Below, in pieces: positions 5,985 to 13,115 of a stretch of DNA of 28,323 nucleotides (position 1 is the first letter of the stretch; the number at the start of each line of letters is the position of its first letter). The stretch is from assembly GCA_034402455.1 (NCBI GenBank), contig DASCRS010000036.1, positions 1-28,323 of the forward strand, written 5' to 3'. The translations under genes were made by a program, and so were the position numbers. Source of the stretch: Poseidonia sp. GTDB taxonomy: Archaea > Thermoplasmatota > Poseidoniia > Poseidoniales > Poseidoniaceae. The notes under the pieces are model-generated. The model was not told where the DNA came from and made no database searches. It saw only the letters and a list, made by a program, of their open reading frames with translations.

Positions 5985-6599
5985 TTAGTCATCCATTGAT
6001 GAGTTCATTTGTTCCATGGTGATGATGAAAATAGCCGCAAAACCTACTCCCAAAAGGATGGTTGCGATCTCTCCTGAAGTGAATCCATCCGGTCCATCAA
6101 CAATAACCGCCTTTTTTGATGTGGTTATGCTTGTCGTGTCTTTCGTCCAGTGGTCACCACTTCCAGCTATACCATCGCCATTCACAGCATTACCGTATGT
6201 TGTGAAGGTTACAACAGTACCTTTGGAAGGTGCGTTCCATTGAACCGTCCAAGTCCGCTCATCGTTTCCTTCAGAGGTATGTGTTGCCTCTCCATCAAGT
6301 ATTTGCGTGAATATGTCCATTGAACCAAGGGTTCCAGTTGAAGCCCGAAGATTGAATCCTCCAGTGTTCAATCCGCTCGATTCTGGACCAGTGAGATTCA
6401 CATAAACAGTGTATGATTCACCGTGAGTCCAATTGAGGGGAACGCCTTCCACTGTCAGAGCAGCCTCATCTGAAATAGCGCCATCTCCATGACATGTACA
6501 TCCTGAATTAACACCATTTATTCCACTACTATAGCCGTTTGATAGGGGTGCTATGAATATCAATAGAAATGCGCAACTTACTCCAATGAGGTACCTCAT
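5985..6599 (-). CDS. Secreted, C-terminally membrane-anchored choice-of-anchor V / Reeler-like protein with a CxCH motif
   Basis: Signal peptide, SGCTCHG, GGFNL, THT, WTVQWNAP, GNAVNGDG and a C-terminal TM helix. Clearly paralogous to the Cox1 N-terminal domain. Confidence 0.8.
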   Translation of the reverse strand: MRYLIGVSCAFLLIFIAPLSNGYSSGINGVNSGCTCHGDGAISDEAALTVEGVPLNWTHGESYTVYVNLTGPESSGLNTGGFNLRASTGTLGSMDIFTQILDGEATHTSEGNDERTWTVQWNAPSKGTVVTFTTYGNAVNGDGIAGSGDHWTKDTTSITTSKKAVIVDGPDGFTSGEIATILLGVGFAAIFIITMEQMNSSMDD

Positions 6600-9342: not shown

Positions 9343-11514
9343 TCACTCGCCCTCTTGGGCGAACGGGTGACCAATAGAATGGTCAAAATTATGAGGTGGT
9401 GGAGGGGATGAAACTGTCCATTCAAGGGTTGACCCATTCCATGGGTTTGGCCCTGCGATCTCACCGTGTTTCATACTGCGCCAGAAGTTGTAAAAGAACA
9501 ACAATTGCCCAGCAAAGACCACAAAACCACCAATGGTAGCAATAAGATGAGCGACTTCCCAGCCAGCTGATTCTTGATAGAAATATATTCTTCGGGGCAT
9601 GTCAGTCAGACCAAACAAGGGAATCCATGTGAGGTTAATTCCAATAAATGTAATCCAGAAATGGTACATTCCCAATTTCTGGTCCATCATTCGACCGAAC
9701 ATCTTCGGGTACCAATAGTAAATTCCACCCAAAGTCATGACTGCAACGGCACCCAGCGTATAGTGGAAATGCGCAACTAGATAATAGGAGCCTCTCAAAT
9801 TGACATCCATGGCGACACTTGAGAGGTAGACACCAGTAATACCTCCAACAAGGAAAATACCGATGGCTCCGGTCACGAAGACAAGAGGAAGTTTTTTCCA
9901 ATCTGGCTTTGAGCGATAAAAAGTTGCTAGCAAGGAGAGATAAATCAAACCGAATGGAACGCTAACAAGTTCCGTTCCAATGGTTTCAATTTTCCTGAAT
10001 GTAGGATTGATTCCAGTGATGAACATATGGTGTGCCCATACCAATACCGATATGATTGAGGCAACAACCAAGGAATAAATGATGATTTTTCGTCCGTAAA
10101 GTGAACGACGGACCGTGTTGGGGATAATTTCCATGGCCATTCCCAATCCTGGTAGGAGGACAATGTAGACCTCGGGATGTCCGAAGAACCAGAAAATATG
10201 CAACCACCATGTTGTTCCATCGATGCTTGGGTCAAAGAACATGGTTCCAAAGACTCGGTCACCAACAAGCATGAGCACCGCTGCCATGAGTGCAGGGAAC
10301 ACCGCGAGCATCAAAATGACGGTAAAAAGAATGTTCCATGTGAACATGGGCATCTTCATCAATGGCATTCCAGGTGTTTTCATTTGCAAGATTGTGACAA
10401 GGAAATTGACCGTGCTAAACGTGACAGAAAGAATCAACAAAACCAGCCCAGCACCCGCCAGACTTATTCCAGCACCAGGGCTGTATTCTATGCTCGTCAA
10501 GGGGCTATAGAACGTCCAACCAGCATCCGCAGCGCCACCAAAGAAGAATCCACTTGCGGCAACGAGGCCGCCAAAGAGAATCATCCAAAATGACATTGCA
10601 TTGAGACGTGGGAAGGCCATGTCCTTGGCTCCAATTTGAAGAGGGACAATGTAATTTGCAAAAGCAAAGGACATTGGAGATACGGCGAACAGAACCATAA
10701 CGGCACCGTGCATGGTGACCGCTTCGTTGAACAACCCTCCAGTCATGAAATCATTATCCGGTACGATCAATTGGATTCGGATGAGCAAAGAGAGCGCAAG
10801 TCCGATAATGGTGAACAAGAGTGTGGTCCAAAGGTAGAGCATTCCGATGTCTTTGTGATTGGTCGTTGTCAACCAATGCATGACTGTTTTTTTGTCCACT
10901 GCTGGGTTTCTGACCATAAGTACAACCACTGCTGCAACCAAGCCAAGGATGGTCAAAACAATGAGCCACCAAGCAAGATTTGTGAAATCAATGATTGGTC
11001 CGCCGTCGGAATTTAACCCTTCTACCAAGATTTCTTGGCTTGACCAAAGGTCTCCAGCAGAATTCAAACCGTCTCCGTCAACGGCGTTGCCGAATACTTT
11101 GAACGAAATGTCGTCGGTGTCATCAAGAGGAGCATTCCATTGAACTGTCCACTCTCTTACATCGTTCCCCTCAAGTGTATGAGTCATCTCAATTCCCTTA
11201 TTTGGGCCATCAATCACTCGCGTGTGGTTGTCAAGCGAAACAAATTCGCCCCCATCAGCATGCAGGTTGAATCCACCAGAGTTTGCTCCGCTCGCTTCAG
11301 GACCCCCAGTGATGTTGATGGTGAGTTCGTAGCTTTCGGAGCCGTTGTAAACGTCTGGTAATCCTGTGATGGTTACTGTCACATCGTTGGATGCACTTCC
11401 TCCTCCGTGGCATGTACATCCACTGTCGACATTAGCGATTCCGTTGGAAACACCTTCCATCGTAGGGGCAAATGCAATCAAAACAAGAATTGCCATTGCG
11501 AGTAAACGCTTCAT
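9343..11514 (-). CDS. coxA: Heme-copper oxidase subunit I (A1-like) with a fused N-terminal extracellular CxCH domain
   Basis: TMHG, KDMAFPRLN, GWTFYSPL, WFFGHPEVY, WAHH, AHFHY and MPRR. Signal peptide, about 160-aa domain and an extra TM helix precede the core. ATGA overlap with cox2; GGAGGTGG site upstream. Confidence 0.95.
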   Translation of the reverse strand: MKRLLAMAILVLIAFAPTMEGVSNGIANVDSGCTCHGGGSASNDVTVTITGLPDVYNGSESYELTINITGGPEASGANSGGFNLHADGGEFVSLDNHTRVIDGPNKGIEMTHTLEGNDVREWTVQWNAPLDDTDDISFKVFGNAVDGDGLNSAGDLWSSQEILVEGLNSDGGPIIDFTNLAWWLIVLTILGLVAAVVVLMVRNPAVDKKTVMHWLTTTNHKDIGMLYLWTTLLFTIIGLALSLLIRIQLIVPDNDFMTGGLFNEAVTMHGAVMVLFAVSPMSFAFANYIVPLQIGAKDMAFPRLNAMSFWMILFGGLVAASGFFFGGAADAGWTFYSPLTSIEYSPGAGISLAGAGLVLLILSVTFSTVNFLVTILQMKTPGMPLMKMPMFTWNILFTVILMLAVFPALMAAVLMLVGDRVFGTMFFDPSIDGTTWWLHIFWFFGHPEVYIVLLPGLGMAMEIIPNTVRRSLYGRKIIIYSLVVASIISVLVWAHHMFITGINPTFRKIETIGTELVSVPFGLIYLSLLATFYRSKPDWKKLPLVFVTGAIGIFLVGGITGVYLSSVAMDVNLRGSYYLVAHFHYTLGAVAVMTLGGIYYWYPKMFGRMMDQKLGMYHFWITFIGINLTWIPLFGLTDMPRRIYFYQESAGWEVAHLIATIGGFVVFAGQLLFFYNFWRSMKHGEIAGPNPWNGSTLEWTVSSPPPPHNFDHSIGHPFAQEGE

Positions 11515-12245
11515 TGTGCACCACCTCCAGAATACCATTGGTCAAAATCGGATTTCTCCATAACTTCGAGTTCACCAATCATGACGGCATGGTCTGCCCC
11601 ACACAATTCATAACAACGAATTGGATAAGTTCCCGTTTCTTCAGCCAAAATCCATCCTATGTTTGGACGACTTGGGAGTGCATCAACCTTAATTCGGTGT
11701 TCTGGCAAGGCGAAGGAATGAAACACATCTCCGCCAATGACTTCGAACACGACTGGGGTGTCAACCGGGATTCGTAATGGTTCATCGGTGGCACTGGTGT
11801 AATTGATTCCATTGGGGTATTCGTATTCCCAATAATACTGCCATCCCGTGACTTGCACGGTGAACGATTCCTCCTCAAGTTCTGGTGTCTCAAAAAATTT
11901 GATTGAATCGAAAGTAACTGAAGAAAGGACGAGAAGAAATACAGTAATGATTACTGTAAGGCTCCATGAAAGTTTGACATTTCCTCGTTCAATAGGCATT
12001 TGTCCCAAGAAAGGAGCATCCGAAGGTTCGACTTCCACTTCAGTCGTTACCAACCAAAGGAAGAAACCGTAGACAGTAACGGCTACAATACATCCTAATG
12101 TCCAGTAAATCAAGAAGAGGTTGTCGTATACCTTGGCGTGTTCTCCAGTTCCAGGTTCTTGGAACCATTTGATGATTGAGCCAAAGGTCAGCATAAGAAT
12201 AACAATCGAGAAGAAAATGAGTCCAAATGCCCGTTTATTCTGCAT
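11511..12245 (-). CDS. coxB: Heme-copper oxidase subunit II, CuA type, no cytochrome c domain
   Basis: Two TM helices, GWQYYWEYEY, DVFHSF and CYELCGADHAVM. GGAGGT site and ATGA overlap with cox3. Confidence 0.95.
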   Translation of the reverse strand: MQNKRAFGLIFFSIVILMLTFGSIIKWFQEPGTGEHAKVYDNLFLIYWTLGCIVAVTVYGFFLWLVTTEVEVEPSDAPFLGQMPIERGNVKLSWSLTVIITVFLLVLSSVTFDSIKFFETPELEEESFTVQVTGWQYYWEYEYPNGINYTSATDEPLRIPVDTPVVFEVIGGDVFHSFALPEHRIKVDALPSRPNIGWILAEETGTYPIRCYELCGADHAVMIGELEVMEKSDFDQWYSGGGAQ

Positions 12246-13057
12246 CAGATAACCTCCACATATACAATCAAGAACAGCACCATCCAAACCACATCAACAA
12301 AGTGCCAATACCATACAATGGCTTGGAATGAATCCCTTCTTCCGTTGTCATAGTATCCTTTTTTGTGTAAGAAAGCGACCCCCCCTAAGGCAATGATTCC
12401 AACCAATACATGGAGTCCATGCAATCCTGTTAAGGCAAAGAAAGCGGTGCCATAAGGATGGTCTTTCCATGTGAACCCTGTATGCATATATTCATACAAT
12501 TGAATAGCCAAAAAGAGAGCACCAAAAGCGATGGTAATGTACAGATTCTTTCGAGAACGAACCAGTGAACCCCGGTCATGGGCGTGAAGAGAAAGGTGGG
12601 CTATGATTCCCGAAGAAAGCAATAATGCAGTGTTGAACATCACCAGCATCATGTTGTGGTGAATCTCTGCTGGTGGCCATGAAGATGAGGCGATTGCTCC
12701 ATCCCAAGAAACAGTGTGCCATTTCGCCCAAAACCAAAATGCAAAGAATCCCGCAAAAACAATGACTTCTGTGAGGATAATCCATACCATTGCCCACGAA
12801 GCATGGCCCATTTTGTGGGTTGAAATCTCACGAAATTGCCAGAGATCAACATCTTCTCTAACCCAAGAGAATATCGACCACACCAACATTGGAATTGCAA
12901 GGAAAGCGATGGGCCATATGAGTAAAGAAGCAAGTGTTAAGGTTACTGAAAGTGAAAAGATTAGAGGTACCAAACTGGAATGAACTTCTCCAGGTTCTCC
13001 GTGAGCATCCATGTTGATTTTCCAAAGCGATTCATTCGGTAAGTGTTCACCATCCAT
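12245..13057 (-). CDS. coxC: Heme-copper oxidase subunit III
   Basis: LTEVIVFAGFF, WPP, NTALLLSSG, FFALTGLHGLHV and YWHFVDVVW. Start 13057 is supported by promoter geometry. Confidence 0.93.
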   Translation of the reverse strand: MDGEHLPNESLWKINMDAHGEPGEVHSSLVPLIFSLSVTLTLASLLIWPIAFLAIPMLVWSIFSWVREDVDLWQFREISTHKMGHASWAMVWIILTEVIVFAGFFAFWFWAKWHTVSWDGAIASSSWPPAEIHHNMMLVMFNTALLLSSGIIAHLSLHAHDRGSLVRSRKNLYITIAFGALFLAIQLYEYMHTGFTWKDHPYGTAFFALTGLHGLHVLVGIIALGGVAFLHKKGYYDNGRRDSFQAIVWYWHFVDVVWMVLFLIVYVEVI

Positions 13058-13079
13058 GGATATTCCAGGGGAGAGAAGA

Positions 13080-13115
13080 ATATACATTGTAACACGAACA
13101 TGTAGGGGGGACATG
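13080..13115 (-). promoter_or_regulatory. cox operon promoter: CGAACATGT-N7-ACATG box plus TATA-like GTATAT
   Basis: Box at 13095-13103, 38 bp from the ATG at 13057. Second ACATG at 13111-13115. Minus-strand GTATAT at 13085-13080. Confidence 0.75.

What the first reader, a model, noticed from the sequence alone, without database searches (positions are those of the whole stretch)
10900..11514. Oxidase subunit I fused to an extracellular CxCH (choice-of-anchor V / Reeler-like) domain
Seen: signal peptide, a domain with CTCH (11407-11418) and a conserved THT, an extra TM helix, then the normal cytoplasmic Cox1 start. The topology is coherent and there is no stop or frameshift. Subunit II has no cytochrome c domain. 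Established: c-type heme motifs are usually CxxCH, and caa3 oxidases fuse cytochrome c to subunit II, not I. Inference: the domain may be a non-canonical heme or Cu electron-entry module, with the THT His as a possible second ligand.
Basis: partly seen in the sequence, partly recalled or inferred. Interest (0 to 1): 0.82.

Follow-up and report, generated by a model that had tools for sequence, protein, structure and literature searches.

The report
Haem-type Reeler domain on oxidase
In this Marine Group II archaeon the core subunit of the oxygen-reducing respiratory enzyme carries an extra outward-facing domain that very probably holds a covalently bound haem on an unusual Cys-x-Cys-His site, and it is the best candidate for the missing electron carrier of this abundant ocean group.

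Summary
Window 9343-11514 (minus strand) is one 723-aa gene: signal peptide, Reeler-fold domain (NF041895, 87 bits against a cut-off of 42) with C33-T-C35-H36 and T-H112-T, an extra membrane helix, then a complete Cox1.

It is not an assembly artefact. 36 fused homologues keep G-C-x-C-H and H112 invariant.

The haem reading is strongly supported:
- Across the family the "CH" is invariant, while the Cys spacing varies (1, 2, 3, 4 or 9 residues, and one single-Cys form). That is the pattern of haem c sites, not of a disulfide.
- The genome has an archaeal Ccm system (CcmC, CcmF, CcmE with CxxxY).
- No classical cytochrome c was found in 41 relatives.
- In a 201-genome phylum sample, all 73 genomes with the domain hold a CcmC/CcmF-family gene, against 30 of the 128 without it.
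- A homologue in Pyrolobus (CxxCH) belongs to the group that Kletzin et al. 2015 predicted to be Reeler-fold monohaem cytochromes c.

Covalent haem, and electron transfer to CuA, remain unproven.

A paralogue heads the Rieske/cytochrome b operon. Cytochrome f ties as the best structural neighbour.

This scan has found the same fusion before in other MGII genomes. I found no description of it in the papers I searched.

The parts
9343..11514 (-). cox1 fusion gene, 723 aa: signal peptide, Reeler-fold CxCH domain, extra membrane helix, Cox1 core
   Evidence: ORF list and translation; Pfam COX1 and NF041895; full-length AlphaFold2 model with pLDDT 86.6
11452..11514 (-). signal peptide, residues 1-21 (MKRLLAMAILVLIAFAPTMEG); the start ATG overlaps the cox2 stop (ATGA)
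   Evidence: sequence; modelled as helix 2-19
11017..11442 (-). exported Reeler-fold beta-sandwich domain, residues 25-166
   Evidence: NF041895 at 87-91 bits; model pLDDT 90.2; F-spondin reeler domain is the top Foldseek match at E 5e-7 and has VIA Z 10.5; 56 of 150 family members match Pfam Reeler
11407..11418 (-). C33-T34-C35-H36, proposed contracted haem c attachment site with His36 as proximal ligand
   Evidence: C35 and H36 are invariant and C33 is 98% conserved in 150 representatives; all three are invariant in 36 fused Cox1; the Cys spacing varies across the family
11176..11184 (-). T111-H112-T113; H112 is the candidate distal haem ligand
   Evidence: H is 94% conserved (Gln in 5%) in 150 representatives and 36/36 in fused Cox1; it aligns with the THT of the Pyrolobus homologue; Kletzin et al. 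name the conserved His111 of the Ignicoccus homologue as a candidate distal ligand
10909..10986 (-). extra membrane helix TM0, residues 177-202, which returns the chain to the cytoplasmic side before Cox1 helix I
   Evidence: sequence; helix 177/180-202 in both models
9379..10875 (-). Cox1 core (A-type haem-copper oxidase subunit I), residues 214-712
   Evidence: TIGR02891 at E 6e-166 and PF00115 at E 1.5e-125
11511..12245 (-). cox2, with an intact CuA site and no cytochrome c domain (the ORF lists from TTG at 12287; the ATG at 12245 abuts the cox3 stop)
   Evidence: PF00116 and TIGR02866; CuA motif in the translation
12245..13114 (-). cox3
   Evidence: PF00510 at E 7e-32
5985..6599 (-). free-standing, C-terminally anchored paralogue of the Cox1 N-domain (GCTCHG), a candidate tethered electron shuttle
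   Evidence: NF041895 at 83 bits; 48% identical to the Cox1 N-domain, E 9e-41; motif seen

Best explanation
The N-terminal 170 residues of this Cox1 are an exported monohaem c-type cytochrome domain of the Reeler fold. Haem would be attached by thioether bonds to Cys33 and Cys35 of a contracted Cys-x-Cys-His site, by the archaeal Ccm system (CcmABC, CcmE of the CxxxY type, CcmF). His36 would be the proximal iron ligand and His112 probably the distal one. An extra membrane helix tethers the domain to the outer face of the oxidase. There it would act as a built-in electron entry point: it takes electrons from paralogous Reeler-fold cytochromes (one heads the Rieske/cytochrome b operon, one is a free anchored copy in this gene cluster) and passes them to CuA of Cox2. 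This is the role the fused cytochrome c plays in caa3 oxidases. Shown here: the architecture, fold, motif conservation, maturation genes and phyletic pattern. Inferred: haem attachment, the ligands and the direction of electron flow.
For: (1) Architecture and fold: NF041895 above its cut-off, model pLDDT 90, reeler fold.
(2) Haem-site signature: C35 and H36 are invariant in 150 representatives out of 799 clusters. The Cys spacing is CxCH in 137, CxxCH in 5, Cx4CH in 5, Cx9CH in 2 and a single-Cys A-T-C-H in 1. A paralogue in this genome has Cx3CH.
(3) G-C-x-C-H and H112 are invariant in 36 fused Cox1 that are as little as 48% identical, while the x varies.
(4) Maturation genes in this genome: a CcmF-like gene, a CcmC-like gene next to an ABC ATPase, and CcmE with C-P-S-K-Y. 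In 41 genomes of the order (this one plus 40 relatives), PF01578 is in 40 and CcmE in 37.
(5) The Ccm system has no other obvious substrate. PF00034 and PF13442 score above cut-off in 0 of the 41 genomes. The three long ORFs with CxxCH in this genome are cytoplasmic. In a closed 1.6-Mb relative, no exported protein with C-x(1-4)-CH matched a known cytochrome c family in Pfam or by motif context: six are Reeler-like, two are thioredoxin-like and three are unknown surface proteins.
(6) Phyletic containment in 201 genomes of the phylum: all 73 with the domain have PF01578, against 30 of the 128 without it. 58 of the 73 have CcmE, against 8 of the 128.
(7) Direct homology (E 2e-25, with CH and THT aligned) to the Pyrolobus fumarii CxxCH protein Pyrfu_1333. 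Kletzin et al. 2015 name P. fumarii homologues of the Ignicoccus proteins they predicted to be Reeler-fold monohaem cytochromes c; that Pyrfu_1333 is one of them is my inference.
(8) Respiratory context: Cox2 has CuA but no cytochrome c domain. A paralogue heads the Rieske/cytochrome b operon of this genome. The literature says MGII lack cytochrome c1 (PMC6336850).
Against: No biochemical evidence exists for haem in any member of this family; the Ignicoccus case is also only a prediction. To my knowledge CxCH is proven as a haem site in only one protein (Kuenenia KsTH, Ferousi et al. 2019, cited from the reference list seen). Eukaryotic reeler domains carry no cofactor. 15 of the 73 domain-positive genomes gave no CcmE hit, including all four of one family, although all have PF01578. 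Related genomes are not independent samples, so the phyletic counts overstate the support.
Confidence: 0.6

Rival explanations
1. The domain does bind haem c, but it is not the entry point of the oxidase. It could instead branch electrons to the co-transcribed copper nitrite reductase or other partners, or act as a docking or sensor module or supercomplex connector.
For: nirK, with its own plastocyanin-like domain, follows cox1 directly in the same direction. There are 3-9 paralogues per genome in varied architectures, including proteins of 800-900 aa.
Against: The fusion to Cox1 is conserved throughout the order, in genomes where no linkage to nirK was looked for. Cox2 has no donor domain of its own.
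Confidence: 0.15
2. The Cys-x-Cys-His site binds copper. The domain would be a Cu chaperone for CuA/CuB assembly or a redox copper site, not a cytochrome.
For: Cys and His are good Cu ligands. The copper-binding proteins YcnI and CutI appear among the weaker structural neighbours (Foldseek E 6.5e-4, VIA Z 7.5). The gene cluster is rich in copper proteins.
Against: A metal site would not tolerate Cys spacings of 1, 2, 3, 4 and 9 residues and a single-Cys variant while the adjacent His stays invariant. It does not explain why the domain is found only in genomes with Ccm genes, or why the Ccm system otherwise has no substrate. The match to YcnI is no better than to many unrelated beta-sandwiches.
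Confidence: 0.12
3. The domain has no cofactor. It would be a structural, adhesive or assembly domain of the Reeler type, with the two Cys forming a disulfide or having no special role.
For: The solved reeler domains (F-spondin) carry no cofactor. The family name 'choice-of-anchor' reflects surface-protein architectures, and some members carry PKD or Ig domains.
Against: The sequence alignment to F-spondin starts only after the CxCH segment, and F-spondin has no His at the THT position. The archaeal family keeps both invariant. The domain recurs in respiratory complexes: fused to Cox1 and at the head of the Rieske/cytochrome b operon. The phyletic tie to Ccm also argues against it.
Confidence: 0.08
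4. The fusion is an assembly or gene-calling artefact.
For: The genome is a fragmented MAG of 161 contigs, 55% complete.
Against: The same 704-754-aa architecture occurs in 36 aligned homologues from NCBI, JGI, ENA and Logan assemblies and in a closed relative genome. The domain and the Cox1 core are contiguous in five checked loci.
Confidence: 0.01

Closest known systems
Predicted Reeler-fold monohaem cytochromes c of Desulfurococcales (Igni_0579/Igni_1052 of Ignicoccus hospitalis, with homologues in Pyrolobus fumarii and Hyperthermus butylicus; Kletzin et al. 2015, PMC4429474)
   Same: Same protein family: the Pyrolobus member Pyrfu_1333 (annotated 'choice-of-anchor V') aligns with the Cox1 N-domain at E 2e-25. 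Both have a signal peptide, a haem-type motif near the mature N-terminus, a reeler beta-sandwich, a conserved His near residue 111-112 and often a C-terminal membrane helix.
   Different: Those proteins have the canonical CxxCH and are free-standing. Here the motif is the contracted CxCH and the domain is fused to oxidase subunit I through an extra helix. Neither has been tested biochemically.
caa3-type cytochrome c oxidases (Thermus, Bacillus)
   Same: An A-type oxidase (Cox1, Cox2 with CuA, Cox3) with its electron donor built into the enzyme on the outer face.
   Different: In caa3 a class I all-helical cytochrome c (CxxCH) is fused to the C-terminus of subunit II. Here a beta-sandwich Reeler-fold domain with CxCH is fused to the N-terminus of subunit I, and no class I cytochrome c was found in the lineage.
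Cytochrome f of the b6f complex
   Same: A beta-sandwich c-type cytochrome with the haem motif close to the mature N-terminus and a membrane anchor after the domain. It ties as the best structural neighbour in an exhaustive search (Z 10.6 and 10.5, 133-137 residues aligned, from model residue 22). A paralogue of the domain heads a Rieske/cytochrome b operon.
   Different: There is no detectable sequence similarity. Foldseek does not rank cytochrome f among its top 1000 matches. Cytochrome f uses CxxCH and the N-terminal amino group as ligand (from my own knowledge). Here the motif is CxCH and the candidate distal ligand is His112.
Contracted CxCH haem site of Kuenenia stuttgartiensis KsTH (Ferousi et al. 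2019, J Biol Chem 294:16953)
   Same: A Cys-x-Cys-His motif that binds haem c covalently. This shows that such a site can work.
   Different: KsTH is a bacterial multihaem cytochrome with an unrelated fold, and its contracted site is an exception among canonical ones (from my own knowledge; the paper was not readable here). In this archaeal family CxCH is the rule, in 137 of 150 representatives.
Eukaryotic Reeler domains (F-spondin, reelin, insect defence proteins, ferric-chelate reductase 1)
   Same: Same fold, with weak but real sequence similarity: Foldseek E 5e-7, profile E 0.005, Pfam Reeler in 56 of 150 members.
   Different: In the sequence-profile alignment to F-spondin, the match starts after the N-terminal GCxCH segment and there is no His at the THT position. 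No cofactor is known in them.

Membership tests
NCBIfam NF041895 choice-of-anchor V / Reeler superfamily | HMM score above the curated cut-off | tested here: met
   87.2 bits on the protein and 91.5 bits on the genome, against a cut-off of 42
NCBIfam NF041895 choice-of-anchor V / Reeler superfamily | Reeler-type beta-sandwich fold | tested here: met
   Model pLDDT 90.2. F-spondin reeler domain is the top Foldseek match (E 5e-7) with VIA Z 10.2-10.5. Pfam Reeler is matched by 56 of 150 family members.
NCBIfam NF041895 choice-of-anchor V / Reeler superfamily | N-terminal exported domain followed by one of several alternative C-terminal anchors (meaning of the family name, from my own knowledge) | tested here: inconclusive
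   The domain is followed by a membrane helix, but that helix leads into Cox1 rather than ending the protein. Free paralogues end in a single helix.
c-type cytochrome (covalently bound haem) | Cys-Xn-Cys-His attachment motif on the polypeptide | tested here: met
   C33-T-C35-H36. The CH is invariant and the spacing varies among homologues as in known haem c sites. The spacing here is non-canonical (n = 1).
c-type cytochrome (covalently bound haem) | Export to the outer side of the membrane | tested here: met
   An N-terminal signal peptide and an extra helix before the cytoplasmic Cox1 start give a coherent topology. This is a prediction from sequence only.
c-type cytochrome (covalently bound haem) | A cytochrome c maturation system in the genome | tested here: met
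   CcmF-like gene, CcmC-like gene, ABC ATPase and CcmE (CxxxY) in this genome. All 73 domain-positive genomes of the phylum sample have PF01578.
c-type cytochrome (covalently bound haem) | Haem demonstrably attached by thioether bonds, with the characteristic spectrum | not testable with these tools
   Needs haem stain, pyridine haemochrome or mass spectrometry.
caa3-type oxidase | A-type Cox1 with Cox2 (CuA) and Cox3 | tested here: met
   TIGR02891, TIGR02866, PF00510 and a complete CuA motif
caa3-type oxidase | Class I cytochrome c domain fused to the C-terminus of subunit II | tested here: not met
   Cox2 has only the COX2 domain. PF00034 and PF13442 score above cut-off in none of the 41 genomes of the order.
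Cytochrome f | Sequence membership (Apocytochrome f families) | tested here: not met
   No cytochrome f hit in the Pfam scans of 150 members or in the PDB profile search
Cytochrome f | Large-domain beta-sandwich with an N-terminal haem segment | tested here: inconclusive
   VIA Z 10.6 and 10.5 to two cytochrome f chains, the top of 48,161 chains. This comes from one aligner only, Foldseek does not find it, and the residue-level alignment was not available.
YcnI/CutI-type copper-binding domain | Close structural match | tested here: inconclusive
   Only mid-rank fold similarity (Foldseek E 6.5e-4, VIA Z 7.5), no better than many unrelated beta-sandwiches. The copper ligands were not compared.

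The most novel reading that the evidence does not exclude
Reeler-fold CxCH proteins are the only c-type cytochromes of Marine Group II archaea, and they are evolutionary kin of cytochrome f. The MGII chain would then be a b6f-like Rieske/cytochrome b complex with a cytochrome-f-like subunit, feeding an oxidase that has the same kind of domain built into subunit I. This would give cytochrome f, so far without known relatives (to my knowledge), a wide archaeal and eukaryotic (Reeler) family, and would define a new structural class of cytochrome c with a contracted haem site.
Probability: 0.2. Interest if true: 0.92.

Novelty: new variant of a known kind. Interest (0 to 1): 0.78.

Why it matters
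Marine Group II archaea are among the most abundant microbes of the surface ocean and have no cultured member. Published genome surveys note that they have a Rieske protein, cytochrome b and a cytochrome c oxidase but no cytochrome c1, and they name no carrier between the two complexes (PMC6336850). If the Reeler-fold CxCH domain is a cytochrome, that gap is filled and the role of their otherwise substrate-less Ccm system is explained. It would also add a beta-sandwich class of c-type cytochromes in which the contracted CxCH site is the norm, and the first oxidase I know of with a donor domain fused to subunit I. All of this can be tested directly with one recombinant domain.

Tried and rejected
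(1) The conserved distance of 8 to 17 kb between ccmE and one paralogue in many relatives looked like functional linkage. The genes in between are unrelated (tatC, a peptidase, tRNA endonuclease, a kinase, archease), so it is only conserved gene order.
(2) Canonical CxxCH proteins as Ccm substrates: the three long ORFs with CxxCH in this genome are a helicase, an aIF5B-like GTPase and a zinc-finger protein, all cytoplasmic. In the closed relative the exported CxxCH hits are thioredoxin-like active sites, an Fe-S protein, or large surface proteins with no cytochrome family match.
(3) The search for related loci with the 150-sequence alignment failed because no stretch was conserved enough. I took organism names from cluster members instead.
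(4) The distance from CxCH to CuA, and the contact between H112 and H36, could not be measured. Model coordinates are not exposed, and only single chains can be predicted.
(5) Sequence-level kinship with cytochrome f was not found. Foldseek does not support the structural match either.
(6) The Ferousi et al. 2019 paper could not be read. It is cited only by the title seen in a reference list.
(7) Literature searches for MGII with cytochrome c maturation, Reeler or choice-of-anchor found no description of this fusion.
Full report
**What is there.** Window 9343-11538 holds one uninterrupted minus-strand ORF.
- The likely start is the ATG at 11514. It overlaps the cox2 stop as ATGA and gives 723 aa, the length of the nearest homologues.
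- The protein has a hydrophobic signal peptide (residues 1-21) and then a beta-rich domain (about residues 25-166).
- An extra membrane helix follows (residues 177-202), then a complete A-type Cox1: PF00115 over residues 222-665 at E 1.5e-125, and TIGR02891 over 214-712.
- NCBIfam NF041895 (choice-of-anchor V) matches residues 12-160 at 87 bits against a cut-off of 42.
- Upstream lie cox3 and cox2. Cox2 has a full CuA site (H...CYELCGADHAVM) and no cytochrome c domain.
- Downstream lie a copper nitrite reductase with a plastocyanin-like domain, a cupredoxin-like gene and a free-standing anchored paralogue of the N-domain (5985-6599; 48% identical, E 9e-41).

**It is real and lineage-wide.**
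- A full-length search gave 36 alignable fused homologues of 704-754 aa from NCBI, JGI, ENA and Logan assemblies. The named ones are Candidatus Thalassarchaeaceae, Candidatus Poseidoniaceae and 'Euryarchaeota archaeon' MAGs, so the organism is a Marine Group II archaeon (Poseidoniales). They are annotated only as oxidase subunit I.
- In all 36, G32, C33, C35, H36, H112, W122, W126, D155 and W157 are invariant, while the x of CxCH varies among T, N, V, F, L, M and S.
- All 40 sampled relatives (3 families, 11 genera) have the domain in 2-9 matches each. At least 32 have an open frame of 770-796 aa that starts with it. In five loci I confirmed that the domain and the Cox1 core are contiguous.
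- An assembly artefact is therefore excluded.

**Fold.**
- The N-domain model is confident (pLDDT 90.2), and so is the full-length model (86.6).
- Foldseek puts the F-spondin reeler domain first (E 5e-7). Swiss-Prot hits are insect reeler defence proteins, ferric-chelate reductase 1 and spondins.
- A profile of the family finds spondin at E 0.005, and 56 of 150 members match Pfam Reeler.
- The sequence alignment to F-spondin begins only after the CxCH segment, and F-spondin has no His at the THT position.
- An exhaustive VIA-align search placed cytochrome f on top (2jxm_B Z 10.6, 4ogq_C Z 10.5; 133-137 residues aligned, starting at model residue 22). This is level with the reeler chains (Z 10.2-10.5). 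Foldseek does not rank cytochrome f in its top 1000, and there is no sequence signal, so I treat this as a lead.

**Why haem c.**
1. In 150 representatives of 799 clusters, the second Cys and the His are invariant and the first Cys is 98% conserved.
2. The spacing between the two Cys varies: CxCH in 137, CxxCH in 5, Cx4CH in 5, Cx9CH in 2 and one single-Cys A-T-C-H. A paralogue in this genome has CGGACH. Variable spacing before a fixed 'CH', with occasional loss of the first Cys, is the known behaviour of haem c sites. It is not that of a disulfide or a metal site.
3. This genome carries an archaeal System I: a CcmF-like gene, a CcmC-like gene next to an ABC ATPase, and CcmE with the archaeal C-x-x-x-Y motif.
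4. In the 41 genomes of the order (this one plus 40 relatives), PF01578 is present in 40 and CcmE in 37, yet PF00034 and PF13442 score above cut-off in none.
5. The three long ORFs with CxxCH in this genome are cytoplasmic. A census of a closed 1.6-Mb relative found these exported proteins with C-x(1-4)-CH: six Reeler-like proteins (one of them the Cox1 fusion, one with Cx3CH), two thioredoxin-like proteins and three unknown surface proteins. None matched a known cytochrome c family.
6. In 201 genomes of the phylum that are at least 80% complete, all 73 with the domain have PF01578, against 30 of the 128 without it. CcmE is in 58 of the 73, against 8 of the 128. Related genomes are not independent, but the containment also holds family by family.
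7. One CxxCH member is Pyrfu_1333 of Pyrolobus fumarii, annotated 'choice-of-anchor V'. It aligns with the Cox1 N-domain at E 2e-25, with the CH and THT in register. Kletzin et al. 2015 (PMC4429474) predicted Igni_0579/Igni_1052 and their homologues in P. fumarii to be monohaem cytochromes c modelled on the reelin-N fold, with a conserved His111 as a candidate distal ligand. That prediction has not been tested biochemically either. That Pyrfu_1333 is one of those homologues is my inference.
8. A functional contracted CxCH site is documented in Kuenenia (Ferousi et al. 2019). I saw this only as a reference title.

**Proposed mechanism.**
- The apoprotein is exported by its signal peptide. The Ccm system attaches haem to C33 and C35, with H36 as the proximal and H112 as the probable distal ligand.
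- TM0 tethers the domain to the outer face of Cox1.
- The domain takes electrons from the paralogous Reeler-fold proteins and hands them to CuA, then to haem a and the binuclear centre.
- In this genome one paralogue (CLCH) heads the operon Reeler-like / small protein / Rieske-type protein / cytochrome b (contig C136). This is the position where cytochrome c1 or f would be expected, and Tully 2019 notes that MGII lack a canonical bc1.
- The architecture, the motif pattern, the maturation genes and the distribution are shown. Haem attachment, the ligands and the electron path are inferred.

**Rivals.**
- A haem domain with another role, such as feeding NirK or docking: 0.15.
- A copper site or chaperone: 0.12. 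YcnI is only a mid-rank structural neighbour, and this reading is hard to square with the variable Cys spacing and the tie to Ccm.
- A cofactor-less structural domain: 0.08.
- An artefact: 0.01.

**Comparison and novelty.**
- Functionally the closest system is the caa3 oxidase, but there a class I cytochrome c is fused to subunit II. That defining feature is not met here.
- By family the domain belongs to NF041895/Reeler and to the group Kletzin et al. predicted as cytochromes.
- New here are the contracted motif as the rule, the fusion to subunit I, and the role as apparently the sole candidate cytochrome c family of MGII.
- None of the papers I could search describes this.

**Earlier scan notes.** This scan has reported the same fusion and its Rieske-operon paralogue before, in other MGII genomes. 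I re-tested those claims here.

Noticed in passing
L025:1506-4585 (own genome, contig C136): Respiratory operon in this genome: a Reeler-like CLCH protein (302 aa), a small DUF7318-like protein, a 281-aa protein with Rieske-type CTHLCC/CICHS boxes (no Pfam hit), cytochrome b (PF00033) and a 466-aa ORF. The Reeler-like gene sits where cytochrome c1 or f would be expected.
   Followed up: partly
L023:502-3977 (own genome, contig C84): Two adjacent Reeler-like genes: an 833-aa protein with CSCH and a 325-aa protein with CGGACH (Cx3CH). This shows that the Cys spacing varies even within one genome.
   Followed up: partly
L069:15316-16782 (-) and L041:18781-19452 (-) in relative G039: A 488-aa protein joins an exported thioredoxin-like domain (DCSNCH) to a polytopic membrane domain with an SPCAFP motif reminiscent of CcdA. 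A 223-aa lipoprotein-like AhpC/TSA protein has the motif CQGCH. They may be the thiol-reducing branch of cytochrome c maturation. The HMM support is weak (E 0.007 and 2e-5).
   Followed up: partly
N-domain model, residues 22-170: Cytochrome f (2jxm_B, 4ogq_C) ties with the reeler domain as the best structural neighbour by VIA-align (Z about 10.5). Foldseek and the sequence profiles do not find it.
   Followed up: partly
window 11511-11514, 12243-12247 and 9343-9346: Start and stop codons overlap between cox3/cox2 and cox2/cox1 (ATGA), and possibly cox1/nirK. This suggests translational coupling along the cluster.
   Followed up: no
L021:1171-7048 (own genome, contig C2): The CcmF-like gene lies next to UbiA prenyltransferase, UbiD-family decarboxylase and geranylgeranyl-reductase-like genes, that is, quinone or lipid biosynthesis.
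   Followed up: no
L030:1455-3694 (relative G006): One Reeler-like paralogue (334 aa) sits directly upstream of a TatC-like gene. It keeps a constant distance of about 8 kb (genus) or 16 kb (other family) from ccmE across many relatives. The genes in between are unrelated.
   Followed up: yes
G033:C24:4972-5460 (relative, not fetched): A 912-aa open frame with the Reeler-like domain gives a weak PF13442 hit (E 0.007) over the haem-motif region of the class I cytochrome c model. It may be a CxxCH variant.
   Followed up: no
phylum sample: G081, G163, G174, G206 (family f28) and G055 (f17): These genomes have the domain and PF01578-family genes but gave no CcmE hit. Either their CcmE is too divergent for the model or they use a CcmE-independent route.
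   Followed up: no
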